Source: Candidatus Kerfeldbacteria bacterium CG_4_10_14_0_8_um_filter_42_10
GTDB taxonomy: Bacteria; Patescibacteriota; Patescibacteriia; UM-FILTER-42-10
DNA: 64,000 bases
Direction: 5' to 3'
Assembly (NCBI GenBank): GCA_002784945.1
Contig: PFMD01000024.1
Coordinates: 17,858-81,857 of the forward strand
The translations under genes and the position numbers were made by a program. This document shows, piece by piece, positions 44,159-59,200 of the stretch; position 1 is the first letter of the stretch; each line of letters starts with the position of its first letter. Under the pieces are notes generated by a model, which worked only from the letters and a program-made list of their open reading frames with translations, made no database searches and was not told where the DNA came from.

Positions 44159-44443
44159 TTACTTTTTTCTACTCGTCCTCTCAACTTTTTGAGAAAACAA
44201 TTGGTTCTTTAAAGTTCTATAAATCCAATTCTTACCCCAACCAGTTTTTAAAAATTTTTCTCTTTGCGCTGCATCATGCTTATTCCGATGAGCTTCATAA
44301 TACAACAATATAAATGGATGCCTCGACTGCGTAGAAAAATTTTCACCATTATTATGTGAGTTAAACCTCTTACGTAGATCATTTGTCATACCGATATACA
44401 TATTTCCATCTTTTATACTCTGAAGTATATAGACGTACCACAT
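44159..44443 (-). CDS. GIY-YIG nuclease family protein (copy 1)
   Basis: 94 aa; WYVYIL...GNMYIGMTNDLRKRFNSHN; 65% identical over the shared region to the 47868..48083 copy. Confidence 0.75.
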   Translation of the reverse strand: MWYVYILQSIKDGNMYIGMTNDLRKRFNSHNNGENFSTQSRHPFILLYYEAHRNKHDAAQREKFLKTGWGKNWIYRTLKNQLFSQKVERTSRKK

Positions 44444-44618: not shown

Positions 44619-47408
44619 TCACAACTCCTCGGCTTTTTCAATTCGAATGGTTCCGCCTTTTTCCAAAACAGCAACATCCCTGCGGCCAACCTTGCCCGAA
44701 AGCATATATTTGGCTAAAGCACTGTCTACTTTATCCTGGATTACTCTTCTTAAAGGCCGAGCTCCAAATTCAGGGTGAAATCCTTCCCGGGCCAGTTCGA
44801 CAATCGCTTCCTGGTCCGCTTTTAGTGTGATTCCCTTTGGAGCAAGCTGGAGGGCGACTTTATTTAATTCCAATTGAGCAATTTGTACTACCTGATCAAA
44901 CGTTAAGGGTTTGAATACGACGATTCCATCAAAGCGGTTCAAAAATTCCGGGCGAAAATAGCCTTTAAGCACCTGGCCTAAAACTTGTTTTTGAATCTGG
45001 TCAGTGGTTAGACCGGCTCGCATCCCTTCTTGAATTTGGGCGGTACCGGCATTAGAGGTAGCGATCAAAATAGCATTGGTAAAATCAATGGTTCTTCCCG
45101 CTCCATCGGTAAGGCGGCCATCGTCCATCACTTGTAAAAAAACATTTAAAATATCAGGATGCGCCTTTTCTAATTCATCCAGCAGTACTAGGGAAAAGGG
45201 TGCAGAACGGACCGCTTCTGTTAAATACCCTCCGGCGCTGGCCCCTTTGTAGCCGGGCGGCGCTCCAATCAAACGGCTGAGCGAGGATTGGTCTTGGTAT
45301 TCCGACATATCCAGCCGGACCATTTTAGTCTCCGCTCCAAAGTAAACTTCCGCCACGGTCTTGGCTAATTCCGTTTTGCCTACGCCGGTGGGGCCGACAA
45401 AAAGAAAATTGGCAATCGGCCGGTTGGTATCTCTAAGCTCAGCCCGGGCTCTTCTTAACGCTTCGGCTACCAAATGCACCGCCTCATCTTGCCCCACTAT
45501 TCGGGCGTGCATCTTTTCTTCTAAATTGATCAGCAGATCTTCTTCTTCCATGGTCACCGTTGTTACCTTTACGTTTGTTTTTTCCGAAAGTACGACGGCC
45601 ACTTCGTTTTTTCCAACAATGGCATTTTCTCCTTTGGTTTCTCGAGTATAAACTGCGGCCTCTTCCATAATATCTAAAGCCTTGGAGGGCAAATAACGAT
45701 CGTGAATATACCGGCGGGAAAGTTTGACGGCGTTTTCAATGGCATCATAAGAAAAGAATACCTTATGGCGATATTCCATTCCGCCGGACCTGGCTTCTAA
45801 TACTTGAATAGCGGCATTGTCATCCATTTCCTCTACTTTAACCACTTGGAAGCGGCGCATAAAGGCATCGTTGTTTTTAAGATAAAGATTAAAGTCGGTT
45901 GTAGTCACAACGCCGATTACTTGAATTAACCCTTGAGATAAGGCGTTGGCTAAAATGCCTGCAGCATCCTGTGCCCCTGCTGTGCTGCTAGCACCCACCA
46001 GATTAGCAATATCATCAATAAATAACGTAACGTTTCCGGCGGAAGTGGCTTCGTTAATTGCGGTCATCATCCGGCCTTCAATTTCCCCTTGGGCATGGGT
46101 GCCGGCAATCAGCCCGCCCGTTTCTAAACTAACCAAGCGCTTATCCTGAAGAACCTTAGGTACGTCTTCGGCGGTCATTCTCTCAGCAATTCCTTCGCCA
46201 ATAATTGTTTTGCCCACACCGGCATCACCGACCATCAGCACGTTACCCAGCCGCTGTTCCAAAATCCTCAAGACTTCATCCATTTCCTTTTCCCGGTCAA
46301 TCAGCGGAAATAAGGCGCCGGCCCGGGCCGCTAAAGTCAGGTCTCTACTAAACTGATCCAACGTAGGAGTGGGCCGCGCCGTCATGGCCCGATTCATAAT
46401 ATTTTTAGGCTTCAGCTGCGCTTTGGAACGGAAGCGGCGCCAACGCTCCTGAAGCAGTTTGGTGATGTGGATCCATTCCGCGACGTTTTTCAACTTATTG
46501 AAATCAACCTCTAAATCATAAAGAATTTCCTGAGCCACTTTATGGGTTTTAGCAATAACAATGAGCAACTCCGTAACATCCACCTTATCCCGACGTAAGC
46601 TGCTTGCTTCAACGTAAGCCATAAAAAGCAGATTGTAGAATTCGGGCGAAAAACCGGTCTGTTCGCCAATAGTGTACTGTTCCTGCTTTAATGCCCTTAT
46701 TACTTTCTGCATTAAAAGTTTTGCGTTTATTCCCATTCGCCCGAAAATCACAGCGCTCTGCTTAAGCGTCAAAAGTGAAGCTAGTAAATGAAGGGAGTGC
46801 ACTTCACTATGTTTTAGCTTTCGCGCCAACTTCCATGACTCTTCGACTAATTTAAGCGCGTCTTCGGTGAAAGTCTTGCTGATATCAATTTTTTTGTCTT
46901 TAGGCAACGATTCTGCCTGGTCGAAAGTTAGCGGTGCGGAGAGAGGCACGGCAGTGGTATAACTTCCTTTTTTCACCGAGTGTTTTAGTTTCTCTTCCTG
47001 ATCGATCCGGTAAAAAATGTAAAGATCTCCTAAAAGACTGATCCAGAATAAAAGCAGACCGGGCTTTTTCAGGTTTAATAAATCAGAAATTGCCGAGATC
47101 TGCTCTAAAGAACGCACGACTTCTAAAAAACCAAGTAAGATTCCTAAGACCGCCAATAAAATCAGCAGGCCGTTAATGGTAATCCGGATTCCCCTTTCCA
47201 GTTTATCTTCTACAATCGAAATAGTATTCATCTTCTTGCCCCAATACAAAGCATCGCCTAGATAATAGGCATATGCTCCCAAGCCGTTGCATTTGGAACA
47301 GCGCACTTCTTCCTTGCTGCTAATTAGGCGCGAATAACCGTTACACCGATCGCAAGGAATAAGCCCAAGAGACTCTTTTTCTGGTTCTTTACTTGTGTAG
47401 AATGCCAT
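44619..47408 (-). CDS. Clp/Hsp100-family double-AAA+ ATPase with N-terminal zinc ribbon and two TM helices
   Basis: 929 aa; CDRCNGY...CSKCNG zinc ribbon; two hydrophobic helices; Clp-N repeats; D1 GDAGVGKT; D2 GPTGVGKT; short D1-D2 linker, so no ClpB-type M domain. Confidence 0.8.
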   Translation of the reverse strand: MAFYTSKEPEKESLGLIPCDRCNGYSRLISSKEEVRCSKCNGLGAYAYYLGDALYWGKKMNTISIVEDKLERGIRITINGLLILLAVLGILLGFLEVVRSLEQISAISDLLNLKKPGLLLFWISLLGDLYIFYRIDQEEKLKHSVKKGSYTTAVPLSAPLTFDQAESLPKDKKIDISKTFTEDALKLVEESWKLARKLKHSEVHSLHLLASLLTLKQSAVIFGRMGINAKLLMQKVIRALKQEQYTIGEQTGFSPEFYNLLFMAYVEASSLRRDKVDVTELLIVIAKTHKVAQEILYDLEVDFNKLKNVAEWIHITKLLQERWRRFRSKAQLKPKNIMNRAMTARPTPTLDQFSRDLTLAARAGALFPLIDREKEMDEVLRILEQRLGNVLMVGDAGVGKTIIGEGIAERMTAEDVPKVLQDKRLVSLETGGLIAGTHAQGEIEGRMMTAINEATSAGNVTLFIDDIANLVGASSTAGAQDAAGILANALSQGLIQVIGVVTTTDFNLYLKNNDAFMRRFQVVKVEEMDDNAAIQVLEARSGGMEYRHKVFFSYDAIENAVKLSRRYIHDRYLPSKALDIMEEAAVYTRETKGENAIVGKNEVAVVLSEKTNVKVTTVTMEEEDLLINLEEKMHARIVGQDEAVHLVAEALRRARAELRDTNRPIANFLFVGPTGVGKTELAKTVAEVYFGAETKMVRLDMSEYQDQSSLSRLIGAPPGYKGASAGGYLTEAVRSAPFSLVLLDELEKAHPDILNVFLQVMDDGRLTDGAGRTIDFTNAILIATSNAGTAQIQEGMRAGLTTDQIQKQVLGQVLKGYFRPEFLNRFDGIVVFKPLTFDQVVQIAQLELNKVALQLAPKGITLKADQEAIVELAREGFHPEFGARPLRRVIQDKVDSALAKYMLSGKVGRRDVAVLEKGGTIRIEKAEEL

Positions 47409-47802
47409 TGATAATGGTAATTAAATGATGCTCCTTAATCTCGGATAATTGGAAAATAATGGAATAGATAATGAAAACGGGTAAAATCAACCAAATAATA
47501 AACAGGATCACCAACACAACAACCCAGATCACCGTGGTCAGCAGTAGAAAAAAGAAATGGAAAATTCTTACAAAAAAACTGATTAACCGGCCGCTGCGCG
47601 AATAGTCGCCATACATCGGCTTAAGCAAATTAGCAAACAGAATCTTTAGGGAAAGCGCTTCGGCTAAAGAAGAAATTTGCCGGCCAATAAAAAACAGCAC
47701 TTTTTTAGTGCCGGTGGTGTACCACCATACTGGAAAATAGAAGATTTTGCCAATCAGCTCAATAAAAACATATTTAAGCGCGTTGATAAACGCATTACTC
47801 AT
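47389..47802 (-). CDS. Hypothetical membrane protein (3-4 TM)
   Basis: 137 aa; start codon directly abuts the CCCGTTAGAG element end. Confidence 0.45.
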   Translation of the reverse strand: MSNAFINALKYVFIELIGKIFYFPVWWYTTGTKKVLFFIGRQISSLAEALSLKILFANLLKPMYGDYSRSGRLISFFVRIFHFFFLLLTTVIWVVVLVILFIIWLILPVFIIYSIIFQLSEIKEHHLITIINGILHK

Positions 47803-48077
47803 CCCGTTAGAGAAAGGAAGCGCTTCAGACGATTTTTTAGATATCTTTTACCCATACCTGATTTTAGTTATTTTTCTCTAGTAAAAGCATCGCCTTTATT
47901 AAAACACGCTTCATAATAAATTAGAATAAATGGCCCACGACCTTTTGTAGAAAGTATCATATTATTGTTATGTTCCTTAAAGCGCTTCCGTAAATCAATA
48001 GTACAACCCGTATACCAATCATTATCTTTTTTACTTTGAATAAGATAAGTATACCACGCTTTGTTTTCTCTAACGGG
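47803..48077 (-). mobile_element. CCCGTTAGA terminal-inverted-repeat element carrying a GIY-YIG gene
   Basis: TCATCCCGTTAGAG at 47799..47812 and CTCTAACGGGACTCAT at 48068..48083 form inverted ends flanking the GIY-YIG ORF. Confidence 0.55.
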
Positions 48078-48083
48078 ACTCAT
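47868..48083 (-). CDS. GIY-YIG nuclease family protein (copy 2, C-terminally shorter)
   Basis: 71 aa; WYTYLIQ...WYTGCTIDLRKRFKEHN; lacks ~20 C-terminal residues present in copy 1. Confidence 0.6.
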   Translation of the reverse strand: MSPVRENKAWYTYLIQSKKDNDWYTGCTIDLRKRFKEHNNNMILSTKGRGPFILIYYEACFNKGDAFTREK

Positions 48084-48219: not shown

Positions 48220-48891
48220 TTAACTTATTTTAGATATTTTTTTAATAATTTCATCCGCTGAAGAAAAAAATTCTAGTTCCGCCAGAAATTCTCGGGGTAA
48301 AGTCTCCATATTCATCAAAGTCTGCAGTAAACCGATCCAGTAGTTGCTGATGAATACTAATTGGGGCAGCTGTTCCGGATGATATTTACGGTTATTGATA
48401 TGGGTAATTGCTCTCATTAACATCATTAACGTTCCTAAGCCCCCTCGAAAAATCACGATAATCGGCGCGCAGGTAGCCAAAAGTTCTATGCGCGGCGTGG
48501 GAGCATTCACTACTACGCGGGGACCATATTTGCTAATTTCTTTCTCTAACTCCGGAAAAACAATTCCCAGACTGTTTTCTTTACCTATTTTAGAACTAGC
48601 CTCCATAATACCCGACTTGCGGCCACCGTTCATAACAATTCCTCCGTTTGCTACCACATATTCTGTTATTCTAGCAGCATCTTGTGCCTGAGGATGATCA
48701 GCTTTAATTGTTCCACTACCGTTGATAGAAACTACCAGTCCCTCACTTTCATAAGTCAAAAGGTATTCCTGCGAAGAACCGTGAATAGAAACCCAAGCTT
48801 TAGCGCTTTTCAGCTCCACTTCTTTAATTATTTCACCCAGCAATCTTCTTTTTTTCTTTTGGAATATTTCTTCTAAATTTTGCTTTGCCAT
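48220..48891 (-). CDS. LOG/TIGR00725-family Rossmann-fold protein
   Basis: 223 aa; VMNGGRKSGIMEASSKIG...IVIFRGGLGT motifs of the SLOG superfamily. Confidence 0.5.
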   Translation of the reverse strand: MAKQNLEEIFQKKKRRLLGEIIKEVELKSAKAWVSIHGSSQEYLLTYESEGLVVSINGSGTIKADHPQAQDAARITEYVVANGGIVMNGGRKSGIMEASSKIGKENSLGIVFPELEKEISKYGPRVVVNAPTPRIELLATCAPIIVIFRGGLGTLMMLMRAITHINNRKYHPEQLPQLVFISNYWIGLLQTLMNMETLPREFLAELEFFSSADEIIKKISKIS

Positions 48892-48982: not shown

Positions 48983-50227
48983 CTATTCGTATCTTAACGC
49001 ATCTAAAGGATTAATTTTGGCGGCGCGGCGCGCCGGATAATATCCAGTTACTAAACTTACCATAAACGAGACGAATAACACTGCCCCCGCTAAAAGAAGT
49101 GGGGTATAGAAGATATCCACCACTTCGCCGCCTGCTCTTTTGGCAAAATAATTTATTCCGTAATTAGTGCCCTCTCCCAATAAAAATCCGACAATCAGCC
49201 CAATGGTGCCGCCCGTCATCCCGATCAAAACCGCTTCGGTGATAAAAAGGCGGTAAATGTCTTTAGTGGTTGCGCCCAGCGCTTTCATTATTCCAATTTC
49301 TCTGGTTCTTTCCAAAAGAGAAACAGTGAGAGTATTAAGTGAACCCATTGCCGCTACAAACATGGCGATGGCACCGAATAAACCCATGATAATTTCAAAA
49401 ACCAAGAATATTTTGTCGATTTGACCCACGGTATCGGCAATCGAATCAACCTGGTATCCCATTCCTTCAATTTGAGCCCTGACTTCTTTTAGCTTTGATT
49501 CGTCCTCCACTTTAACTCTGGCCATAGAGTACTCTTTTTCCTTTTCCACTTTTACTTTTGCCTCGCTGTAAGTAGGCTCAAAGCCGATACTAACTAAGTA
49601 ATCCAGGGGGGCATAAACTATTGATAACTCATCATCGTCTGCCACAACCCCCTGTGTTTTTACGGTAAGCTCCTTAGAAATTAATTCTTCTTCTTGAGTT
49701 CCTTCAATTTTCTGGGGAACTAATAATTTTAGCTTTAATTCTTTACCGACGGCTTCTTGGGGATCGGCAAATCCGATCAGATCCAGGGTAGTTTTGGTAA
49801 CAATTATTTCTTTAGCGGCCGCATCGGAAAATTCCTGACCGTAATTAACTTTGATGCCTTCCATTGACATAAACTCAGGGTTAATGCCATAAATTGCCAC
49901 ATCCGTAATTGCATCCCCGATCCCGACCTGACCGGAAAGGCTAAGAGAAGGGCTCACATCATTAACATTTTCCATGTTTTGAAATTTGTTTACCACTTCA
50001 TCATCCAATTTTAAAAGAGTGGATTCTCCTTTGCTGACATCTAGAACGGTCAATGCCTCTACATTAGTGATTTGATTTTTAATTAACAGCTGTAAGCCAA
50101 AGCCTAATGATAACAAAAAAACTATCAAAGAAATGCCCACCGCCATTCCTCCAATCGTCAGAACGCTCCTTAACTTTCTTTTGATTAAGTTGGACTGTGA
50201 TATGAATAGAATGTACCCAAATTTCAT
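48983..50227 (-). CDS. ABC transporter permease, FtsX/MacB-like
   Basis: 414 aa; N-terminal TM, ~250-aa extracytoplasmic domain, three C-terminal TM helices. Confidence 0.75.
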   Translation of the reverse strand: MKFGYILFISQSNLIKRKLRSVLTIGGMAVGISLIVFLLSLGFGLQLLIKNQITNVEALTVLDVSKGESTLLKLDDEVVNKFQNMENVNDVSPSLSLSGQVGIGDAITDVAIYGINPEFMSMEGIKVNYGQEFSDAAAKEIIVTKTTLDLIGFADPQEAVGKELKLKLLVPQKIEGTQEEELISKELTVKTQGVVADDDELSIVYAPLDYLVSIGFEPTYSEAKVKVEKEKEYSMARVKVEDESKLKEVRAQIEGMGYQVDSIADTVGQIDKIFLVFEIIMGLFGAIAMFVAAMGSLNTLTVSLLERTREIGIMKALGATTKDIYRLFITEAVLIGMTGGTIGLIVGFLLGEGTNYGINYFAKRAGGEVVDIFYTPLLLAGAVLFVSFMVSLVTGYYPARRAAKINPLDALRYE

Positions 50228-50233
50228 TTTTTT

Positions 50234-51097
50234 CTAAGCCTTAAATGAATTGCTGCCCTCTACTATTTTGCCATCACGGATATAAATAGTCCGGGAACCG
50301 TAAGTGACATAATCAATGTTATGAGTAACCATCAATAGAGTCTTTCTTAAACGTTCGTTAAGGTTCTTGAAAAACTCCATTACTTTGGTGGCTGATTCGG
50401 TATCCAAATTTCCGGTGGGCTCATCGGCTACCAGTATTGGCGGATTAGAGGTGAGGGCTCGCGCCACGCAAACTTTTTGCTGCTGACCGCCGGAAAGTGA
50501 GGTGGGGGCATAATTGGCATGATCATCAACCCCCATTTCTCTAAGCCGGTACCAGGCTTTTTCTAACCTTTCCTTTTTACTTATATTATTGATGGCTAAA
50601 GGAAGAACGACGTTTTGAAGCACGTTTAAAGACCTGATCCAGTCCGCTTTCTGAAAAATAATGCCAAAATTATTGTAACGGAATTTAGCCAGTTTATTCG
50701 GGCTTTTTTTGGTAATATCTTCCCCGCGTATAATCACCTTTCCTGAAGTGGGATACTCTAACCCCAATAAAGTATTCAAAAGGGTAGATTTTCCACTGCC
50801 TGAAGGCCCCAAGATAATTATGAATTCCCGTTCATAAATTTTAACATTGATATCCTTAAGAACGGGGATGAGGTTTTTCCCCACTTGAAAGGATTTATTA
50901 ACATGGACTAATTCAATAATCGGCTTCCTTTTATCTGAGCCGGCGTTGTTTTTGGTTTCGGTATCAAAACTATTTACTGTCTTGACTTGTTCTGCCGAAT
51001 TATTATTGGATTTTTTTTCTCCGTTCTGCTTTCCGTTCTGCTTTCCGTTACCGTTTTTACTATTTTTTTTCGCTTTTAGATTCTCACCGTTAACCAT
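50234..51097 (-). CDS. ABC transporter ATP-binding protein (MacB/LolD-like)
   Basis: 287 aa; GPSGSGKST, LSGGQQQKV, LVADEPTGNLD; N-terminal low-complexity NGKQNGKQNG tract from a short tandem DNA repeat. Confidence 0.85.
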   Translation of the reverse strand: MVNGENLKAKKNSKNGNGKQNGKQNGEKKSNNNSAEQVKTVNSFDTETKNNAGSDKRKPIIELVHVNKSFQVGKNLIPVLKDINVKIYEREFIIILGPSGSGKSTLLNTLLGLEYPTSGKVIIRGEDITKKSPNKLAKFRYNNFGIIFQKADWIRSLNVLQNVVLPLAINNISKKERLEKAWYRLREMGVDDHANYAPTSLSGGQQQKVCVARALTSNPPILVADEPTGNLDTESATKVMEFFKNLNERLRKTLLMVTHNIDYVTYGSRTIYIRDGKIVEGSNSFKA

Positions 51098-51180: not shown

Positions 51181-54100
51181 CTAAAACGGCAATCCAATCT
51201 GACCCACCCAGGCAAAGGTTTCTTCTAAGTTAGAAATAACCAGCTGGAGGAAGGATTCTCTTTTGCGGGAGGTTAAAACCGAATAGGAACCGGATTTGGA
51301 TTCATTTCCGGCTTTATCAACGGCCACTACCCGAAAGCGATAGGTCTTGGCCGGAGCCAGTTCCGAGATTACCACTAAATGATCCATGACCAGTTCGGCG
51401 TTTGCTTCCGTCTGTTCGGTGAATTCCGTGCCGGAAAGGCCTACGCCAAATTCTGCCTGAGAAGTGGTTGGTTCGTTGGTTTTCCAATTGACGATGATCT
51501 GGACCGAGGAGGTTTCCCCCGCTCCAATCGTGTTGGATTCGGACTGGATTCCCGTGATTACCGGCGGGGTGGTATCTTCCAGCGTAGTAAAAGTATTCAC
51601 TTCGGATACGGCCTGGTAGCCGAACTGGTCAAAGCCTTTGGTTTTGAACTGGTAGGCGGTAGCATCTTCCAAACCGAATAGGAGAATGGAGTGGGTAGTG
51701 ACCAGGGCGGAGTTGCCTTGAGTTTTAGGGGCAATGGAAGAGTTGTAGTACTCTACTTCCGAAGTGGTAAGAACATTAGTGGTCCAGCTGATTTCGGTCT
51801 GTCCTTCGGATTTGTTTTCAAAGGATATGGAGAGTACTTTCGGAAAAGTCAGAGTAGTAAAGGAATAATCGCTTGATTCCGGGGAATTGCTGGTAGAATC
51901 CAGTCCGGTGGGCCTAAAGTGGTAGGTGGTGCCATCAGTAAGACTGGCAAGCTTCATAGTATGAGTAGTGGTGAGCGAGCCGGAGGTATCGGCCACCGTA
52001 AAGCCATAATCCACGGCAGTTCCATAGTCTAGCTTGGTGGTAGTGGGTTTGTTAGTGGTCCAGGTGATCAGAGCATCAAAGAGCTTAACGTCTGATACCA
52101 CCACTTCTGAGACACGGGGGGCTTCTAGAGTGGTGAAAGTAGCAATGCTGGAGAGAGCGACGTTGCCGTCTTGGTCTCTGGATCGAATCCGATAATAATA
52201 AGTAGTTTTCGATTCTAGTCCTTCCAAAACAACTGTATGTTTTTCACTTTCTTCAATCGTTCCCTGTTCTTCGCCAAATTCTTGAGTTAAACCATATTCT
52301 ACATGCGAATCAGCATTTCTTTCCGTTTCCCAAGTTACGTTTGCGGAAAAGGAATCCGGCGTTACAGTTGGTCCAGAGGTAATCTCTGGAGGGGTAGTAT
52401 ATCTTCCTTCGGGAATGTCTGAAACAGTTGTAGAAGCAGCGGAGGTAGCTCCGGCCGTGTCTTTAGCCTTAACCTTGTAATAGTAGGTTTCCGAGTTATC
52501 CAGACCGACATCCAGGTAGCCGTAGGAAGTGATTTCTGCAATAGATTCAAAGTGATCATCATCATCAACGGACCGTTCGATAATATAGGTGATTTCTTCC
52601 CCATCGGAAGCACTGCTTTGGGTTACTTGTTCCCAAACTAGGGTAATGGAATAAATTTCCGCTTCCCGATTGGAAGAATCGGTAATAATCAATCCGGTAG
52701 GAATCGAGGGGGCTTCAGTCTCCGCCTCAAAATCAATCGAAGCGTAGTTGGAGTAATTAATGTTGTTGTCTTCGTCAATCGCCACCACATAGAAAGTGTT
52801 GGTACCCTGCTGGGTAGCATAGGGGCCGGGGCCGACATATTCGTTGGTGGTATAAGAAACATTTTCTTCCGTAGGAGTGGAGTTGATGGAATAGAAATAG
52901 CCCTGGACCGTCACCCCTTCATCTAAGGGCGGGTCCCAGGTGAACTTAAAGGAGTTTTCCGTGTTGTATTCCGGAGTAACAGCAAGGTTGGTGGGAGCAG
53001 ATAAAGCATCAGCGGTGGTAAAGGTGTAATCGGAAGAATAGCCGGTATTATCATCTTCATCGGTCCATCTCGCCCGGTAATGGTAGGTGGTGTCAGGTTC
53101 CAGGGCAATGAGGGTTACTTCATGGGAAGTGACAAAGTCTTCCTGGCCCTGTTCCTCGCCATAGGAGGTGGCAGTACCGTATTCCACAAAAGAGGAGCCT
53201 TCCCGATCAGTGAGCCATTCTACTGTGGCGGATTGGATCCGGGTGGTTACTCCGGGAGTGCCAACTAAATTAGGCGGTACGTAATATCTTCCCCGGGCCT
53301 GCTCGCAGACTGCCGTGGAGGCGGCGGAGACGGCATTGGCGTTATCCGCTGCTTTGATCCGGTAACAATACCAGGCATTCTGGGTCAGACCGGTATCTAA
53401 GTAACCGGTGCCGGCCACTTGGGATATCTCTGAGTAGTTAACCCCTTCATCTTCGCTTCTTTCCACGTTGTAATGATCAATGCCGGAACCAGTGTTTTCC
53501 GGCTCATCCCAGGTAACAGTTAAGGAGAATTTGTCCTGGGCCCGGTTGGAGGTGTCAGTGACAATTACGCCTACAGGGATACCGGGAGCAGAAGTGTTAG
53601 CGGTGAATTCTATGGAAGAGTAAGCGTTGTAGTTGACGTTGCCGGCCGCATCTTCCGCTACTATGTAAAAAGTGTTGGTGCCCTGCTGGGTAGCGTAGGG
53701 GCCGGGGCCGATAGAGGTAGCAGTGGTAGTGGAGGTATTGAGAGCGGTAGGCAGGGCATTGATGGAATAGTGGTAGCTGGCAATAGAACCGCTGTAGATG
53801 GCCGGAGCACTCCAGGAAAAAGTGAAAGAGTTGGTAGAAGTTGGTTCGGCAGGGTCTACGGCTAAATCTTGGGGTTCGGAAGGAGCCGAGCCGTTGTAAT
53901 AGTAGTTTACTTGGGCATAGGAAGAAGCGAGGTTTCCGGCCTCATCTTTGCTTCGGACATAGAAAACATTAACGTTTTCCTGGTAGGATTCGATGCCAGA
54001 GACGGAGGTGCCGGAGATACAGGTTTCGACGAATCCTTCTTCGCCTGTTTTGTAGCAGTATTCCCCTATTCCGGAATCATCATCTGATCCGGCGGACCAA

Positions 54101-56214
54101 AGGAAGGTGAAGGAATTAACGTTGGAATATCCGGCCGGGTCGGCAGCGGCGATGCCGGGGGAAGTAGGAGCGGTTGAGTCGAATTTGTAGATAAAACCTT
54201 GGTAGGTAGTAGTTACGGTATTACCCACTAAATCGTAGGCTTTTAGGCGAAGATAGTAAGTGTTGCCGGAAGTCAGAGAAGAAAAAGTGCTATTATCCTC
54301 ATTATGGCTGGAACCGTCGTCTTCGGGATCGGCAGAATTATTTAGACCGAAATACACGTAATAGCCGGCCACTCCGGAATCAGGATCAGTAGCGCCTGAC
54401 CAGGTGCAGTAGATATTGTCATCGTTGTACCAGGTATCAGTGGTCAGTTCGGTACCCATGCCCGAATCGGTATAACAGTGAGCCGAGGTAACATTAGAGC
54501 TAGGAGGATCCACATCTTTGAGATAATAGATGGTGATATCGGAAAGAGTGGGGTTGGAAACGCCATCTGTTTGGGTCAAAGTGGCTCTAACTTGAAGATA
54601 CCGATAGGTTTTGTAGGTACTTTGAGGAAACTGGGTTTCTAAGGTAGCGGCAGAAACGCCATATCTGCCGCTGTTGGCATCCTCGTCCGTCATATCATAC
54701 CAAGAAGTCCAGGAAGAACGGTTAGTGGATAACCTCATTTCAAAATCGATATTAGTGTTGGCTGGTATAGTTACCGAGGATTCAAGAGCATTGCCATTGC
54801 CATTATCGCTCCAGCCGCCATTCCAAATAACATCTATGGCATTAGCGTCAGAAGGTGAAGTCCAGGTACCGGAAGATTGAAGCGTGGCGGCTTCGATTCC
54901 TACGGATGTGGAAGGTTCAGGCGATGAATATTTCCTTATCAATTCTTTGCCCGGATAGTTGGTGGTCACGTAGCCGTAATTGCTGTAGAGATCGGCTATT
55001 TCGCCAGTGGTAAGGGTGTGACTATAAACACGCGTCTGATCTATCTTTCCATACCAGTCATATGCGACGCCCGATGACATTGTAAAATTATTGGCAGCGG
55101 GATTGGTATAAGTAGCGGCACCGCAAAGCGAATTATCATAATAAAGATTCGTATTTCCAGTATCAGTAGCAACATTAAAAACATAATGATGAAAATTACC
55201 ATCCGCTGCGTTTGCCGGGATCGTGCAAAATGAATTCGTATCGCCATTCCAAGTATTTAAGCTGATCTTACCATTATAGAAAAATGCGTCCGGTCCGGCG
55301 CCATTCGGTCCAGTTCGCCAAAGCATGCCGTAAGGGTTCGGCGGTACGGCATCAACTACCCACATGGAAATAGCAACTGCCGTCCCAACCGCCGTACTGG
55401 TCGTAATATAATTATTATTGCCTGCAAAATTCCTGGCATTACCGAACTTTCCCGTATCAACAGTCGTGCCGGTAGGCGTTCCTGTGTAATTATTTCCCGA
55501 TGTATCTGCAACATTTCCAGAAGCTTCATCCAAGGTCCACGCGCCAATTACTCCGGTAATCTCCCTAATAAACGTATTCGCTATTGATGATTGACTGGCA
55601 GCCGAACCGCTTCCATAATATAAATAAATACTTTTTGAACTGGAAGCAGGGATTGAAGGCACTTCCACCCAGATTTTAGAAGAAGCGTTATTGCAAGGAC
55701 CATCCAGCCAAAAATCCAAGTTGGTTGAATCATCAGCATCCTTGAACCTGATATCATCACAGTCGCCTTGCATCTTACTGGCCAATATTAAAGCAGCGGT
55801 ATCTAAAGTTAAAGATACTTGATAATTAGTTAAAGTATTAGAGTTACTGCTGTTATTAATAGTAAGGGTTCTTTTGTATTGAGTATTATCCGGCCCGGCT
55901 GAACCAGCCAGTCTCACTTCCCCGCCGCTGATACTTTGGGATACTGCACTAGAGAAGGTTCCTTGATCAAACTGGGCTTGAGTGGTAATGGATTTGAAAT
56001 CCTGAGTAGGAGCGGCTTTAGTGATTGGTCCCTGGTAAAGGAAGACGGCGAGAGCGAGAATCAATAAAACAGAAATACTGGTTTGGATCCAGTATTTTTG
56101 GCGGTAAATCTGAAACTTTTTTTGATATACGCTAAGCGTGGCTAAAGCAGCTTTTAGCTTTCGCTTTAAATCCTTCTCATTGCCACTTTGTTTTTTTTCT
56201 TTCTCCTTCTTCAT
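51181..56214 (-). CDS. Giant membrane-anchored surface protein (DUF2341-like + LamG-like + multiple FN3 domains)
   Basis: 1677 aa; N-terminal TM anchor; DUF2341-like and concanavalin/LamG-like modules; more than 8 FN3-like repeats; C-terminal ~1000 aa closely paralogous to the next gene. Confidence 0.8.
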   Translation of the reverse strand: MKKEKEKKQSGNEKDLKRKLKAALATLSVYQKKFQIYRQKYWIQTSISVLLILALAVFLYQGPITKAAPTQDFKSITTQAQFDQGTFSSAVSQSISGGEVRLAGSAGPDNTQYKRTLTINNSSNSNTLTNYQVSLTLDTAALILASKMQGDCDDIRFKDADDSTNLDFWLDGPCNNASSKIWVEVPSIPASSSKSIYLYYGSGSAASQSSIANTFIREITGVIGAWTLDEASGNVADTSGNNYTGTPTGTTVDTGKFGNARNFAGNNNYITTSTAVGTAVAISMWVVDAVPPNPYGMLWRTGPNGAGPDAFFYNGKISLNTWNGDTNSFCTIPANAADGNFHHYVFNVATDTGNTNLYYDNSLCGAATYTNPAANNFTMSSGVAYDWYGKIDQTRVYSHTLTTGEIADLYSNYGYVTTNYPGKELIRKYSSPEPSTSVGIEAATLQSSGTWTSPSDANAIDVIWNGGWSDNGNGNALESSVTIPANTNIDFEMRLSTNRSSWTSWYDMTDEDANSGRYGVSAATLETQFPQSTYKTYRYLQVRATLTQTDGVSNPTLSDITIYYLKDVDPPSSNVTSAHCYTDSGMGTELTTDTWYNDDNIYCTWSGATDPDSGVAGYYVYFGLNNSADPEDDGSSHNEDNSTFSSLTSGNTYYLRLKAYDLVGNTVTTTYQGFIYKFDSTAPTSPGIAAADPAGYSNVNSFTFLWSAGSDDDSGIGEYCYKTGEEGFVETCISGTSVSGIESYQENVNVFYVRSKDEAGNLASSYAQVNYYYNGSAPSEPQDLAVDPAEPTSTNSFTFSWSAPAIYSGSIASYHYSINALPTALNTSTTTATSIGPGPYATQQGTNTFYIVAEDAAGNVNYNAYSSIEFTANTSAPGIPVGVIVTDTSNRAQDKFSLTVTWDEPENTGSGIDHYNVERSEDEGVNYSEISQVAGTGYLDTGLTQNAWYCYRIKAADNANAVSAASTAVCEQARGRYYVPPNLVGTPGVTTRIQSATVEWLTDREGSSFVEYGTATSYGEEQGQEDFVTSHEVTLIALEPDTTYHYRARWTDEDDNTGYSSDYTFTTADALSAPTNLAVTPEYNTENSFKFTWDPPLDEGVTVQGYFYSINSTPTEENVSYTTNEYVGPGPYATQQGTNTFYVVAIDEDNNINYSNYASIDFEAETEAPSIPTGLIITDSSNREAEIYSITLVWEQVTQSSASDGEEITYIIERSVDDDDHFESIAEITSYGYLDVGLDNSETYYYKVKAKDTAGATSAASTTVSDIPEGRYTTPPEITSGPTVTPDSFSANVTWETERNADSHVEYGLTQEFGEEQGTIEESEKHTVVLEGLESKTTYYYRIRSRDQDGNVALSSIATFTTLEAPRVSEVVVSDVKLFDALITWTTNKPTTTKLDYGTAVDYGFTVADTSGSLTTTHTMKLASLTDGTTYHFRPTGLDSTSNSPESSDYSFTTLTFPKVLSISFENKSEGQTEISWTTNVLTTSEVEYYNSSIAPKTQGNSALVTTHSILLFGLEDATAYQFKTKGFDQFGYQAVSEVNTFTTLEDTTPPVITGIQSESNTIGAGETSSVQIIVNWKTNEPTTSQAEFGVGLSGTEFTEQTEANAELVMDHLVVISELAPAKTYRFRVVAVDKAGNESKSGSYSVLTSRKRESFLQLVISNLEETFAWVGQIGLPF

Positions 56215-56229
56215 TATTCTTACAAAAAC

Positions 56230-59200
56230 CTAGAATGAACCGCCGATCCTTCCAATCCAAGAGAAAGTTTCCTCCAGATTAGAAATAATCAGCTGTAAAA
56301 ATGATTCTCTTTTTCGGGAGGTCAACACGGTATAAGCGCCGGATTTAGTGGTATTTCCCGCTTTATCTCGGGAAACCGCTCTAAAGCGGTAAGTTTTAGC
56401 CGGAGCAAGATCTGAAATAACCACTAAATGATCCATGACCAGTTCGGCGTTTTCATCGGTTTGTTCGGTAAATTCGGTTGCTCCCAAGCCTACTCCGTAT
56501 TCCACCTGAGAAGTAGTCGCCTCATTGGTTTTCCAAGAGATGATGATTTGCACTTTGGATTCTTCACCGGCGCCAATCGTGTTTGATTCCGACTGAATTC
56601 CGCTTACCACTGGCGGAGTGGTATCTTCTAAGGTAGTGAATTCATTCTCATCGGAAACCGCTTCATAGCCGAATTCATCTGATCCTCTCACTTTAAACTT
56701 ATAGAGAGTGGCGTCTTCTAATCCATAAAGAAGAATAACATGCTCTTTCACCATGGCGGTATTACCTTGCGTTTTGGGAGGAATATTTTCACTGTAGTAT
56801 TCCACTTCAGAAGTAGTTGGCACATTAGTGGTCCAAGTCACTTCCGTCTGTCCTTCGGACTGGTTGCGGGAAGAAACGGTTAGAACTTCAGGAAAGGTTA
56901 GAGTGGCAAAGATATAATCATCCGAAGCAATCGGATTGCCGTTGCGGTCTTCACCGCCGATTCTTAAGTGATAAGTAGTGCTGTCAGTTAAACCTTCCAG
57001 CTTAACGGTATGAGTCAGGGCGTAGGATCCGGAAGTATCAGTATAAGTCAAGCCGTAATTAGCCGTAGTGCCGTATTGAATCACGGCCGTTGATTCTTTG
57101 TTAGTTTCCCAACTGATAATTGCATCATACAGTTTAACATCACTGATTTTTACCTCTAATACTCTGGGCGCTTCTAAAGTGGTAAAGCTGTCAATCTCGG
57201 AATAAGCGATATTCTCATCAACGTCAATACTCTTTATTCGATAATAATAGGTGGTTTCCGATTTTAACCCCGTAACTTCAATCTCATGTTTTGCGATTAA
57301 ATCAGCGGTACCTTGTTCTTCCGTTAAATCATTGGCCTTTAAACCAAACTCGACGAAAGAAGAAGCGATTCTTTCCGTTTCCCAAACGATGTCAGCGGAA
57401 AACGAATCCGGCGTGGCGACAGGTGATACGGTAATGGCCGGCGGCTGGGTATAGCGGCCTTCAGGTACTTCTGAAACTATGTCAGTAGCTTTGGATGCCG
57501 CACCGGCTTTGTCTTCTGCAACAACTTTATAGAAATATTCTTTAGAGCTATCAAGACCGGTGTCTAAAAATCCGGTTGAGGTAAATCTGGCAATTTCTGA
57601 AAAACTGTCTTTTTCCCCAACTTTGCGATAAAGAGAATAGTAAACTATTTCAGTTTCATCTTCTGAAGATGACGTTTCATATCCTTCGGGCGGGTCCCAA
57701 GTAATGGTAATGGAATAACGCTTGGCATCACGATCAGAGGAATCGGTAATAGTCACAGCTTGTGGAGGTCCCGGAGGTTCGGTCTCGGCTTCGAAGTCAA
57801 CCGATGCATAATTGGCATAATTGATATTGCCGGAGTCGTCCACCGCCACCACATAAAAAGTATTGATTCCTTGCTGAGTGGCAGCGTCGTAAGGACCAAT
57901 ATAAGTATTGGCGGTAAAAGAGACATTGTCTTCAGTGGGAATATTATTCACCACATAAAAATATCCGGCTACGGTAACACCCTCGTCAGTGGGAGCGCCC
58001 CAGGTAAACTTGAAGCGATTAACAGTGTTGCATTCCGGGTCAACCTCTAGATTGATAGGAGCAGATGGCGCGCCATTGGTAGTAAAAGTGAAATCACTGG
58101 AATAACCGATGTTACCGTCAATATCCACCCATTTGCAGCGGAAATGATAGGTCGTTTCCGGAGTTAAATCAGTCAAAGTAACTTCATGCTCACTAACCAT
58201 ATCAGATGTTCCAGTTTCATTACCGTAGGAAGCTGTTTCCCCATATTCCACAAAAGAAGTCGCCGGATGAGGAATAATGTTTCCTTCTCTATCCTGATCA
58301 TCAAGCGTTAGCCATTCAACCACCGCAGAACGAATTCTGGTTTGAACGCCCGGCTGACCGCTCATAGAAGGGGCGCTCTTAAACTTTCCTTCCGGCTTCA
58401 TTTCTACTAAAGCAGAGTTACCCGAAGCGGCATTTCCCGGACCAATCGCTCTGGTGAAGTAAGTATAAGTAATGGTATTATCAAGGCCCGTATCTAAATA
58501 ACCCAAAGTGGAAGTAGAGGCAATTTTAGTGTAATTATCAGGAGGATCATTTACGGTAGAAGGATTCTGGCAATCCTCTTCACAACGGTAGATATTATAC
58601 AAATCAACTCCCGCTCCTACATCATCCGGTTCATCCCAAGTCAGAGTAATAGAATAACGGCTGGTGGATCGATCAGATGAGTCTGTAGCCTGAATGCTGG
58701 CAGGTACTCCCGGCGCAGTAGAATCAAAAATATAGGTTGCGGTAACATAATTACTGTAATCAATATTATTGATTAAGTCAGTAGCAACGATATAAAGAGT
58801 ATTAGTACCCTGCTGGGTAGCGGCGGAGAACCCTGACAATAAGCGATTGGTTGTCTGGGTATCAGTAGTCCAACCGCCATCCGGACTTGGGGTAGTGCTG
58901 CCGCCTGTATTAGTCCCGCAATTGACAGCGTTTGGCAACTCGTTAATGGTATAACAGTATCTTAAAATATCACTGGCTTCACAAGGCGTTTGTCCTAAAC
59001 AGGTGTCCGGTAAACTCCAGGAAAATGAAAAAGTGTTATTGTTGGTTTGAGATGTTGGTGAAACCACGACGCTCGCCGGAGCGGTAGGAGCTTCGCCGGC
59101 ATAATAGTAAGTGGTGGAAGCGTAACTGGAAGAATAATTACCCGCCCCATCTTTCGCCCGAACATAAAAGGTATTACCTCTGGATTGATAAGCTTGAATG

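What the first reader, a model, noticed from the sequence alone, without database searches (positions are those of the whole stretch)
44619..47408. Clp/Hsp100 unfoldase with N-terminal zinc ribbon and transmembrane anchor
The 929-aa double-AAA+ protein has canonical Clp-N, D1 and D2 modules and a short D1-D2 linker. It is preceded by a CxxC...CxxC zinc ribbon and two hydrophobic helices. Canonical ClpA, ClpB and ClpC are soluble, so a membrane-tethered Clp ATPase would be unusual. It is flanked on both sides by GIY-YIG cassettes. I did not find a clear ClpP-docking IGF/LGF loop.
Basis: partly seen in the sequence, partly recalled or inferred. Interest (0 to 1): 0.55.

Follow-up and report, generated by a model that had tools for sequence, protein, structure and literature searches.

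The report
Membrane-anchored Clp ATPase with partner gene
This gene encodes a Clp/Hsp100-type protein-unfolding ATPase that, unlike every studied relative, is tethered to the membrane by a zinc knuckle plus two membrane helices and is almost always encoded next to a small membrane protein; the pair is conserved in hundreds of ultra-small CPR (Patescibacteria) genomes and I found no study of it.

Summary
Window 44619-47408(-) is one real 929-aa gene. Its order is a DnaJ/anti-TRAP-type C4 zinc knuckle, a two-helix membrane hairpin, Clp_N, D1, no M-domain, D2, and no ClpP-docking loop.

More than 70 full-length homologues from independent assemblies (36-89% identity) share this architecture. All named ones are Patescibacteria.

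- D1 is not canonical. The Walker-B glutamate is absent in all 74 aligned members and no pore-loop tyrosine is present; D2 is catalytically intact.
- The gene directly upstream (47389-47802, 20-nt overlap) encodes a 137-aa membrane protein that precedes the ATPase in 74 of 76 testable genomic loci. The unit is therefore a two-gene module.

The flanking GIY-YIG genes are strain-specific insertions, not part of the module.

Canonical ClpB, ClpP and FtsH also occur on CPR contigs that carry the module, so this is an additional paralogue with its own role.

Most likely it is a D2-driven, protease-independent unfoldase or extractase held at the cytoplasmic face of the membrane and working with its partner on membrane-embedded or membrane-crossing proteins. 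This function is inferred, not shown.

It is a new variant of a known kind. No description was found in the searchable literature.

The parts
47389..47802 (-). Partner gene. It encodes a 137-aa predominantly helical membrane protein with motifs YFPxWWYxxG and KPMYGDYSRSGRxISxxxR (R79 invariant). Its stop overlaps the clp start by 20 nt.
   Evidence: (hydropathy). It lies directly upstream of the TM-Clp gene in 74/76 loci. It has no Pfam or NCBIfam match and no PDB fold or sequence match. AF2 pLDDT is 87.4.
44619..47408 (-). TM-Clp gene: the whole 929-aa ORF, stop codon included.
47271..47360 (-). DnaJ/anti-TRAP-type C4 zinc knuckle (aa 17-46; CDRCNG...CSKCNGLG).
   Evidence: The four Cys are conserved in 72-74 of 74 members. 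32/43 members hit PF00684 below threshold. The profile hits anti-TRAP and DnaJ CR structures.
47115..47183 (-). Transmembrane helix 1 (aa 76-98).
   Evidence: KD19 maximum is 2.73. 72/74 members reach >=1.6. AF2 models a helix at 62-99.
47007..47063 (-). Transmembrane helix 2 (aa 116-134). It is aromatic-rich, with conserved F121, W122, S124, D128, Y133 and R134.
   Evidence: AF2 models a helix at 116-140. K+R counts are 4.7 and 5.3 in the cytoplasmic flanks against 1.5 in the loop.
46449..46874 (-). Clp_N double-repeat N-domain (aa 179-320).
   Evidence: Pfam Clp_N hit. It aligns to ClpC residues 5-150.
45627..46364 (-). D1 AAA+ module plus lid (aa 349-594). Walker A GDAGVGKT (394-401) is kept. 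Walker B is FIDD (no Glu, aa 463-466). The pore loop is AGTHAQGEIE (no Tyr). Arg fingers RR (518-519) are kept.
45609..45647 (-). D1-D2 junction where the M-domain would sit (aa 588-600). It holds only 13 residues.
   Evidence: 72 residues in ClpC, 139 in CPR ClpB. In one search the ClpC M-domain region is left unaligned.
44682..45545 (-). D2 AAA+ motor plus D2-small domain (aa 622-909). It has canonical Walker A GPTGVGKT, Walker B LLDELEKAH, pore loop GYKG, sensor 1 N786, Arg finger R825 and sensor 2 GARPLRR.
45006..45020 (-). The turn R-A-G-L-T (aa 797-801), at the position of the ClpA IGL and ClpC [MLV]GF ClpP-docking loop. Here it is a 4-residue turn between two helices.
   Evidence: AF2 secondary structure shows H789-797, a turn, then H802-817.

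Best explanation
SHOWN. The ORF is a genuine single gene of a large, Patescibacteria-specific branch of class-I Hsp100/Clp ATPases. Its parts are as follows:
- An N-terminal DnaJ/anti-TRAP-type zinc knuckle.
- A two-helix membrane hairpin. Charge distribution places both ends in the cytoplasm.
- A Clp_N domain.
- A D1 ring that keeps its P-loop but lacks the catalytic Walker-B glutamate and the pore-loop tyrosine.
- No M-domain.
- A catalytically intact D2.
- No ClpP-docking loop.
The gene overlaps, and is almost invariably preceded by, a gene for a small membrane protein.

INFERRED. ATP-bound but inert D1 modules hold a hexamer together, as NSF-D2 does. Six N-terminal hairpins pin the hexamer to the cytoplasmic face of the membrane. 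The substrate-entry face (N-domain/D1) therefore points at the bilayer.

The hairpins carry conserved polar residues (S124, D128) and the partner carries an invariant R79. Together they form a membrane module that presents membrane-embedded or membrane-crossing polypeptides. The zinc knuckle may help hold unfolded segments.

D2 then pulls these polypeptides out of the membrane and unfolds them into the cytoplasm, with no built-in or docked protease. This is an FtsH-, Msp1- or Cdc48-like extraction activity built on a Clp chassis.
For: Architecture and conservation:
- Domains are documented.
- 74 full-length homologues share the N-module.
- The N-module profile finds 731 cluster representatives, nearly all about 900-940 aa or fragments.
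- The zinc-knuckle type is established.

Membrane hairpin and topology:
- Hydropathy and the positive-inside pattern support it.
- AF2 helices support it.
- The flexible stretch between TM2 and the N-domain is only about 20 residues with low pLDDT (aa 150-160), so the N/D1 face must stay near the membrane.

D1 inert, D2 active:
- The Walker-B Glu position is D, N, S, Q or G in 74/74 members, and no pore-loop Tyr is present.
- All D2 catalytic residues are invariant.
- The AAA+ core superposes on ClpC/ClpB protomers at TM about 0.88 and rmsd 3.3-3.8 A.

No M-domain.

No ClpP loop. The definition of the IGL/F motif is in PMC5540906.

Partner gene:
- It was found in 9/9 first loci.
- It is adjacent in 74/76 GTDB-representative loci, and at least 566 genomes encode it.

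A distinct paralogue rather than a replacement:
- A canonical ClpB sits next to the module in L084.
- ClpP and FtsH occur on module-bearing contigs.

Membrane-biogenesis neighbours occur in some lineages: YidC directly upstream in 3 loci and signal peptidase I next to D2-less orthologues.
Against: - No experiment exists, and no substrate or interaction has been shown.
- No dedicated TM predictor was available. The second helix is only marginal on Kyte-Doolittle.
- 61 of 74 family members have lost the canonical D2 GYxG pore loop. Some lineages carry orthologues without D2 at all. Processive threading therefore cannot be the family-wide conserved activity, although the window protein keeps GYKG.
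- The window clade has [A/M]-G-[L/M] exactly where ClpC has [M/L]GF, and ClpP exists in CPR. ClpP docking is therefore not strictly excluded for this clade.
- Apart from the partner gene, the gene context is housekeeping and gives no direct functional pointer.
Confidence: 0.45

Rival explanations
1. Non-threading scaffold or regulator. The conserved job of the family lies in the N-terminal half (zinc knuckle, hairpin, N-domain, inert D1 ring). This half would organise or regulate membrane or envelope biogenesis machinery such as YidC, signal peptidase or a WecA-like transferase. D2 would act as a nucleotide switch rather than a translocation motor, as torsin does with LAP1.
For: - 61/74 members lack the D2 GYxG loop, and none has a D1 pore tyrosine.
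- D2-less orthologues sit in the same syntenic slot.
- A WecA-like gene lies directly downstream in 16 loci and is fused to the ATPase in P0243.
- YidC or signal peptidase I is adjacent in some lineages.
Against: - The window protein and its clade keep GYKG, the RR fingers and every D2 catalytic residue.
- D2 catalytic residues are invariant in all 74 full-length members, which indicates selection for real ATP turnover.
- The synteny with envelope genes is confined to particular lineages and is absent from the window.
Confidence: 0.15
2. A membrane-localised stand-alone disaggregase or holdase. It would clear aggregates or misfolded precursors near the membrane, using the DnaJ-type zinc knuckle for substrate binding in place of an M-domain/DnaK link.
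For: - D2 is most similar to ClpB (top NCBIfam hit).
- There is no ClpP loop.
- The DnaJ CR-type knuckle belongs to a domain class that binds non-native proteins in DnaJ (established knowledge).
Against: - From my own knowledge, all characterised stand-alone or DnaK-coupled Hsp100 disaggregases (ClpB, Hsp104, ClpG, ClpL) have an M-domain and two active rings. Here the M-domain is absent and D1 is inert.
- A canonical ClpB already exists in at least one module-bearing genome.
- This model does not explain the dedicated membrane partner.
Confidence: 0.13
3. A membrane-tethered ClpP activator, giving an FtsH-like Clp protease. The short turn [A/M]-G-[L/M] would dock ClpP, and the complex would degrade membrane proteins.
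For: - AGL in the window protein aligns with the ClpC [M/L]GF tripeptide.
- Close relatives have MGL.
- ClpP genes occur on CPR contigs carrying the module.
Against: - Across 74 members the first tripeptide position is hydrophobic in only about 7, and the third is L, M or F in a minority. 66%-identical relatives have QGK.
- The segment is 9 residues shorter than the ClpC loop. It is modelled as a 4-residue turn between helices, not an extended loop.
- A soluble CPR paralogue carries a proper S-I-G-F loop and is the more plausible ClpP partner.
Confidence: 0.12
4. Assembly or gene-calling artefact: the N-terminal 150-180 aa belong to a separate gene fused by error.
For: None found.
Against: The same continuous architecture and length (about 900-940 aa) recurs in more than 70 homologues from NCBI, JGI, ENA and Logan assemblies, down to 36% identity. 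There is no stop or frameshift in the window ORF.
Confidence: 0.01

Closest known systems
ClpA (E. coli)
   Same: Clp_N + D1 + D2 with no M-domain. The ClpA model aligns in one uninterrupted stretch. In ClpA, D1 contributes mainly to assembly and D2 is the main motor (PMC5540906).
   Different: ClpA is soluble. It has an IGL ClpP-docking loop, a catalytically active D1 with a pore-loop tyrosine, and no zinc knuckle. The window protein scores 587 against the ClpA equivalog cut-off of 993.
ClpB / Hsp104
   Same: D2 is most similar to ClpB D2. There is no ClpP docking motif. The AAA+ core superposes at TM about 0.88.
   Different: ClpB has an M-domain of about 120-140 aa (139 in the CPR ClpB of L084 against 13 here). 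It also has two active rings with pore tyrosines, is soluble, and is coupled to DnaK. A canonical ClpB coexists with the module in L084.
ClpC / ClpE (Firmicutes)
   Same: Best overall sequence and structure match. ClpE also carries an N-terminal zinc-binding motif (PMC8635124, listed).
   Different: ClpC and ClpE have a half M-domain (72 aa), an [MLV]GF ClpP loop, an active D1 and no membrane anchor. The zinc motif here is DnaJ/anti-TRAP type. No ClpX-type zinc-finger family was among the listed Pfam matches.
FtsH
   Same: A hexameric AAA+ machine anchored by two N-terminal transmembrane helices per subunit, with its entry face toward the membrane. FtsH extracts membrane proteins (established knowledge).
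   Different: FtsH has a single classical-clade AAA ring fused to an M41 metalloprotease, plus a periplasmic domain. No protease domain is present here. FtsH is separately encoded in CPR.
Cdc48/p97 with Derlin/Hrd1, and Msp1/ATAD1 (functional analogues only)
   Same: N-domain + low-activity D1 + motor D2 (Cdc48). They act at a membrane with small polytopic membrane partners to dislocate proteins. Msp1 is directly anchored by an N-terminal TM helix (established knowledge).
   Different: They belong to a different AAA clade, are eukaryotic, and are recruited via ubiquitin. There is no homology with the N-module or the partner.
NSF D2 / other inert AAA+ rings
   Same: A P-loop is kept but the Walker-B glutamate is replaced (Asp in NSF-D2). 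Such a ring binds ATP and serves hexamerisation (my own knowledge, not tested here).
   Different: In NSF the inert ring is the second ring, and there is no membrane anchor.
DnaJ cysteine-rich domain / anti-TRAP / BSD2
   Same: CxxCxGxG-type zinc centre. The profile matches 3lcz at E 2.6e-7 and 1exk at E 2.3e-6. 32/43 members hit PF00684.
   Different: There is only one zinc centre (two CxxCxG motifs), against two in DnaJ. All Pfam scores are below the gathering threshold. To my knowledge fusion of this knuckle to a Clp ATPase is not described.

Membership tests
Class-I Hsp100/Clp ATPases (double AAA+ ring) | Clp_N domain, two AAA+ modules (AAA + AAA_lid_9; AAA_2 + ClpB_D2-small). | tested here: met
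   Pfam hits. phmmer against PDB ClpC/ClpB/ClpA gives E 1e-152 to 1e-121. Foldseek TM is about 0.88 to hexamer protomers.
ClpB | Long coiled-coil M-domain inserted in the D1 small domain. | tested here: not met
   13 residues at that position, against 139 in the CPR ClpB of L084. The ClpB model matches in two separate stretches.
ClpB | NCBIfam equivalog score (TIGR03346 cut-off 1232). | tested here: not met
   Score 630.7. The L084 soluble paralogue scores 1186.9.
ClpA | IGL/F ClpP-docking tripeptide in a helix-loop-helix of D2. | tested here: not met
   R-A-G-L-T forms a 4-residue turn. The first position is hydrophobic in only about 7/74 members. The motif definition is from PMC5540906.
ClpA | NCBIfam equivalog score (TIGR02639 cut-off 993) and an active D1 with a pore-loop Tyr. 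| tested here: not met
   Score 587. The D1 pore loop is AGTHAQGEIE and Walker B is FIDD.
ClpC | Half M-domain (MecA/UVR region) and an [MLV]GF ClpP loop. | tested here: not met
   ClpC residues 402-459 have no counterpart. There are 13 residues against 72, and the loop is 9 residues shorter.
ClpX/ClpE-type N-terminal zinc-binding domain | A match to the ClpX-type C4 zinc-finger family. | tested here: not met
   No ClpX-type zinc-finger family was among the listed Pfam matches for the 43 N-modules. The best matches are DnaJ_CXXCXGXG, Anti-TRAP and GRXCR1-2_C.
DnaJ CR / anti-TRAP-type zinc knuckle | Paired CxxCxGxG motifs forming one Zn(Cys)4 centre. | tested here: met
   C19/C22/C37/C40 are conserved in 72-74 of 74 members, G24 in 65/74 and G42 in 54/74. 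The PDB profile hits 3lcz and 1exk. Metal binding itself was not tested.
FtsH | M41 zinc-metalloprotease domain C-terminal to the AAA module. | tested here: not met
   No Peptidase_M41 hit. A genuine FtsH on L066 shows the M41 domain.
Integral membrane protein (two-pass hairpin, N-in/C-in) | Two hydrophobic helices long enough to span the bilayer, with the positive-inside rule obeyed. | tested here: inconclusive
   TM1 is clear. TM2 is marginal on Kyte-Doolittle but strong on the Wimley-White scale. K+R counts are 4.7 / 1.5 / 5.3. AF2 models helices. No dedicated predictor or experiment was available.
Two-gene module with the small membrane partner | Partner gene directly upstream on the same strand. 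| tested here: met
   In the window the genes overlap by 20 nt. Adjacency holds in 74/76 loci. Physical interaction is not testable with these tools.

The most novel reading that the evidence does not exclude
The twelve hairpin helices of a hexamer, together with the partner protein, form a membrane conduit, and the D2 ring is its pulling motor. This would be a bacterial retrotranslocon or import motor that draws polypeptides across or out of the membrane into the cytoplasm. In epibiotic, biosynthetically poor CPR cells it could serve to take up host-derived or surface proteins. In logic it would resemble the chloroplast Ycf2-FtsHi import motor or ERAD dislocation. The conserved intramembrane D128 (TM2) and the invariant partner R79 would line or gate the conduit.
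Probability: 0.1. Interest if true: 0.9.

Novelty: new variant of a known kind. Interest (0 to 1): 0.62.

Why it matters
Hsp100/Clp machines are textbook soluble unfoldases, and FtsH is the only well-studied bacterial AAA+ machine that is itself anchored in the membrane.

A phylum-wide, membrane-anchored Clp with one inert ring and a dedicated membrane partner would add a second kind of membrane-bound AAA+ machine. Its lack of a protease link would set it apart from FtsH.

It also gives a handle on membrane-protein quality control, or possibly protein uptake, in CPR bacteria. Their reduced genomes and host-attached lifestyle are poorly understood.

The family offers natural 'mutants' that bear on how double-ring AAA+ motors divide labour:
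- Walker-B E to D, N or Q in D1.
- Deleted pore loops.
- D2-less orthologues.

Tried and rejected
- A word-index homology search with the N-terminal 242 aa alone found nothing. The family was recovered only with the full-length query and a profile search.
This is a weak negative. The same probes did find ClpP on two related contigs.
- A ClpX probe found nothing in 1.37 Mb of CPR loci. This is uninformative.
- The afdb50 fold library was unavailable.
- The partner protein has no fold or sequence match in the PDB and no Pfam or NCBIfam family.
- Five literature searches for a membrane-anchored or CPR-specific Clp returned nothing relevant. A sixth search (ClpP in CPR) found only host ClpP genes and one predicted TM7x Clp protease, which did not settle the question.
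- GIY-YIG 'cassettes' as part of the system: rejected. The two are 58%-identical paralogues and one has an in-frame stop. None is present in eight related loci.
- M16 peptidase, GlyRS and AI-2E synteny as a functional link: rejected as lineage-level housekeeping synteny.
- A split gene as the explanation for the ~600-aa forms: rejected. They end at a natural stop and the downstream genes are unrelated.
Full report
**1. The observation**

The ORF at 44619-47408 on the minus strand is 929 aa with an ATG start, exactly as reported.

Pfam finds Clp_N (aa 193-240), a D1 AAA domain, AAA_lid_9 (531-594), AAA_2 (663-827) and ClpB_D2-small (835-909). NCBIfam places the protein below every equivalog cut-off: ClpB 631 against 1232, ClpA 587 against 993. 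The ClpA model aligns in one stretch, whereas ClpB, ClpV and ClpK align in two. Against solved structures the best sequence matches are ClpC (E 2e-152), ClpB and ClpA. The ClpC M-domain (residues 402-459) has no counterpart.

The N-terminal 180 aa hold C19xxC22...C37xxC40. A strongly hydrophobic segment at aa 76-98 has a Kyte-Doolittle 19-residue maximum of 2.73. A second, weaker segment lies at aa 116-134.

The small-protein gene next door is 100% identical to a hypothetical protein of Candidatus Kerfeldbacteria bacterium CG_4_10_14_0_8_um_filter. The window therefore comes from a CPR/Patescibacteria genome bin.

**2. The gene is real and belongs to a large family**

A full-length search returned about 95 proteins of 880-948 aa that cover 95-100% of the query at 36-89% identity. 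They come from NCBI, JGI, ENA and Logan assemblies. All named ones are Patescibacteria, and they are annotated only as 'ATP-dependent Clp protease ATP-binding subunit', 'AAA family ATPase' or 'hypothetical'. Below them the list switches abruptly to ordinary ClpC of other phyla at about 80% coverage.

In a 74-sequence alignment (A1) the four cysteines are present in 72-74 sequences. G24 is present in 65 and G42 in 54. TM2 carries conserved F121, W122, S124, D128 (58/74), Y133 and R134.

A profile of the N-terminal 178 aa, run against 1.84 billion cluster representatives, found 731 proteins at E<=1e-3 and 242 at E<=1e-10. Nearly all are about 900-940 aa or contig-end fragments.

**3. The N-terminal module**

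Pfam matches are sub-threshold but consistent. Of 43 N-modules, 32 hit DnaJ_CXXCXGXG, 16 hit Anti-TRAP and 14 hit GRXCR1-2_C. The profile hits anti-TRAP (3lcz, E 2.6e-7), the E. coli DnaJ Cys-rich domain (1exk, E 2.3e-6), DNAJA2 and Ydj1 in the PDB. This makes it a single DnaJ-type Zn(Cys)4 knuckle, not the ClpX/ClpE type.

No TM predictor is installed, so I used two hydropathy scales on all 74 members:
- TM1 passes Kyte-Doolittle >=1.6 in 72/74 members.
- TM2 passes in only 28/74 (median 1.52). On the Wimley-White octanol scale, however, it equals TM1 (median 10.6 against 10.9 kcal/mol). The best window in the soluble part scores a median of 3.1.
- Lys+Arg counts are 4.7 before TM1, 1.5 in the 9-30-residue loop, and 5.3 after TM2. 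This is the positive-inside pattern of an N-in/C-in hairpin.

AlphaFold2 on A1 gave mean pLDDT 83.9 and pTM 0.74. It models small beta elements at 15-18, 45-49 and 52-55, and helices at 62-99 and 116-140 with pLDDT about 83-87. Only aa 150-160 are of low confidence before the N-domain.

Both the zinc knuckle and the ATPase body are therefore cytoplasmic, and the N-domain is tied closely to the membrane. This is an inference.

**4. The ATPase body**

Canonical ClpC sequences in the same alignment served as controls, and counts were made over the 74 members.

D1:
- It keeps Walker A (G394, G397 and G399 invariant; K400 >=90%).
- The Walker-B glutamate position is D (37), N (30), S, Q or G, and never E.
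- The K-Y-R pore-loop tyrosine is absent everywhere (window: AGTHAQGEIE).
- The RR arginine fingers survive in about 30/74 members, including the window protein.

D2:
- It is catalytically intact in all members: Walker A and D744-E745, N786 and GARPxxR are invariant, and R825 is >=90% conserved.
- The GYxG pore loop is retained in only 13/74 members, the window clade among them (GYKG). The others carry a 4-6-residue deletion.
- The canonical Gln of GGQLTE is mostly Y, F, L or I.

The M-domain slot holds 13 residues here. It holds 16 in another family member, 71-72 in ClpC and 139 in a CPR ClpB.

At the ClpP-loop position the window has R-A-G-L-T. Gly is common there (61/74), but the first residue is hydrophobic in only about 7/74 members and the third varies (L19, T15, V12, E8...). 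The segment is 9 residues shorter than in ClpC. It is modelled as a 4-residue turn between helices 789-797 and 802-817. The IGL/F motif and the role of pore tyrosines are defined in PMC5540906.

The AAA+ core superposes on ClpC, ClpB and ClpA hexamer protomers at TM about 0.85-0.89 and rmsd 3.3-4 A.

**5. The partner gene**

The ORF at 47389-47802(-) encodes a 137-aa, strongly hydrophobic protein with no Pfam or NCBIfam match. Its stop overlaps the clp ATG by 20 nt.

A homologue lies directly upstream of the TM-Clp gene in every one of the first eight related loci, at Clp identities of 36-89%. In L004 two genes intervene.

It is a Patescibacteria-only family of hypothetical proteins. Invariant residues are P24, W26, W27, Y28, G31, P62, M63, G65, G71, I74, S75 and R79. 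AF2 (pLDDT 87.4) predicts an all-helical protein with no PDB fold or sequence match.

Scanning GTDB species representatives with its motifs found at least 566 genomes. Of the best 80 loci, 76 have room downstream. In 74 of those the next gene on the same strand is an N-module Clp.

The unit is therefore a two-gene module. The conserved intramembrane Asp (Clp TM2) and the invariant Arg (partner) suggest a functional membrane assembly rather than a passive anchor. This is an inference.

**6. Wider context**

Other neighbours are housekeeping and lineage-dependent:
- GlyRS in 24 of about 60 loci
- a WecA/TagO-like Glycos_transf_4 in 16 loci
- TGT in 14
- L21 in 13
- M16 peptidase in 12

YidC sits directly upstream of the partner in three related loci.

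The two GIY-YIG ORFs flanking the module in the window are 58%-identical paralogues, and the upstream one carries an in-frame TAA. None occurs in the related loci. They are strain-specific insertions.

No clpP lies in the window. ClpP does occur on two module-bearing CPR contigs and FtsH on one. That is about what single-copy genes would give in 1.37 Mb of sampled DNA.

L084 carries a near-canonical ClpB next to the module. It scores 1187 on TIGR03346 and has KFRGEFE, FIDELHT and GYVG. Notably it also has an S-I-G-F loop.

The TM-Clp is therefore an extra paralogue, not the CPR version of ClpB or ClpC.

**7. Mechanism**

Shown: the architecture, the conservation, the degenerate D1 with an intact D2, the absence of an M-domain and a ClpP loop, and the obligate gene pairing.

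Inferred:
- D1 acts as an ATP-bound assembly ring.
- The hexamer is pinned by six hairpins with its N/D1 entry face toward the bilayer.
- The partner and hairpins present membrane-embedded or membrane-crossing polypeptides.
- D2 extracts or unfolds them into the cytoplasm, without a docked protease.

I put this at about 0.45.

The main uncertainty concerns the family as a whole. Most members have lost the D2 pore tyrosine. D2-less orthologues of about 590-630 aa end at a natural stop at the D1/D2 junction. They occupy the same syntenic slot, with the WecA-like gene downstream, but have no partner gene nearby. This keeps alive a non-threading scaffold or regulator model (0.15).

The remaining rivals are:
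- a membrane-localised disaggregase or holdase (0.13)
- a ClpP-coupled membrane protease (0.12)
- a translocation or import motor (0.10, the most novel reading)
- an artefact (0.01)

**8. Comparison and novelty**

In domain order the protein resembles ClpA. In D2 sequence and lack of a ClpP motif it resembles ClpB. In overall similarity it resembles ClpC. It fails a defining feature of each (see the membership table).

Functionally, the nearest analogues are FtsH, Msp1 and Cdc48-Derlin.

Five full-text searches found no description of a membrane-anchored Clp/Hsp100 or of this CPR family. Subscription-only literature could not be searched.

I rate it a new variant of a known kind, with interest 0.62.

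**Limitations**
- No dedicated TM predictor was available.
- Gene calls in the fetched loci come from my own ORF heuristic.
- Taxon labels of some records are unreliable.

Noticed in passing
window 44159-44443(-) and 47826-48083(-): Two 58%-identical small GIY-YIG genes bracket the two-gene module. The upstream copy has an in-frame TAA after residue 71, and similarity continues beyond it, so it is a pseudogene or truncated. Neither is present in related loci, which suggests recent selfish-element insertions.
   Followed up: partly
L089 780-2675; L090 2894-4717; L091 767-2590; L092 1688-3469: D2-less orthologues of about 590-630 aa. They consist of the N-module, Clp_N and a very degenerate D1 plus lid, and end at a natural stop at the D1/D2 junction. 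They share the syntenic slot (WecA-like gene directly downstream), but no partner gene is nearby. In 2 of the 3 distinct proteins (four loci) signal peptidase I lies directly upstream.
   Followed up: partly
L084 7168-9843(-): A soluble CPR Hsp100, divergently adjacent to the module. It has a full ClpB-length M-domain (139 aa) and also an S-I-G-F ClpP-type loop. It looks like a natural ClpB/ClpC hybrid and is a plausible ClpP partner.
   Followed up: partly
L057 7570-8283; L066 9258-9971; L061 3673-4380: YidC (60KD_IMP, 237 aa) lies immediately upstream of the partner and TM-Clp genes in three related loci, forming a tight YidC-partner-Clp gene string.
   Followed up: partly
L006 8823-9866, L065 14170-15273 and 14 other loci; protein P0243: A WecA/TagO-like polyprenyl-phosphate GlcNAc-1-P transferase gene lies directly downstream of TM-Clp in 16 of about 85 loci. 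In one database protein (P0243, 1231 aa) it is fused to the ATPase. Whether that fusion is real or a calling artefact was not checked.
   Followed up: partly
L057 4536-5114; L066 2-433; L066 2541-4352(-): ClpP (about 60% identical to B. subtilis ClpP) and FtsH genes are present on CPR contigs that carry the module. These organisms therefore have conventional AAA+ protease components as well.
   Followed up: partly
window 44622-44648(-) (aa 921-929) and family C-termini: The family ends at a conserved C-terminus, ...[IV]-E-K-A-x-x-[L/I/F/V]-COOH, with a hydrophobic last residue. It could be a docking tail. This was not explored.
   Followed up: no
window 45216-45263(-) (aa 716-731) and alignment A1: In 61/74 family members the D2 GYxG pore loop is deleted. 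Meanwhile the Gln of GGQLTE becomes Y, F, L or I (position 728), which may be a relocated substrate-gripping residue.
   Followed up: partly
L066 6346-9261: The GyrA gene carries an intein (Intein_splicing/HINT hits).
   Followed up: no
window 51181-56214(-), 56230-63810(-), 16599-22100(-): Three giant predicted surface proteins (1677, 2526 and 1833 aa) with fn3, Kelch, DUF2341, CarboxypepD_reg and FG-GAP repeats. A MacB-type ABC transporter pair (48983-51097) and a SLOG/LOG-like protein (48220-48891) lie between them and the module.
   Followed up: no
L001/L002 8831-10534: In the 89%-identical relative, the gene downstream of TM-Clp is a 567-aa Cys-rich repeat protein with an N-terminal TM segment. 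The window instead has the GIY-YIG gene at that position.
   Followed up: no
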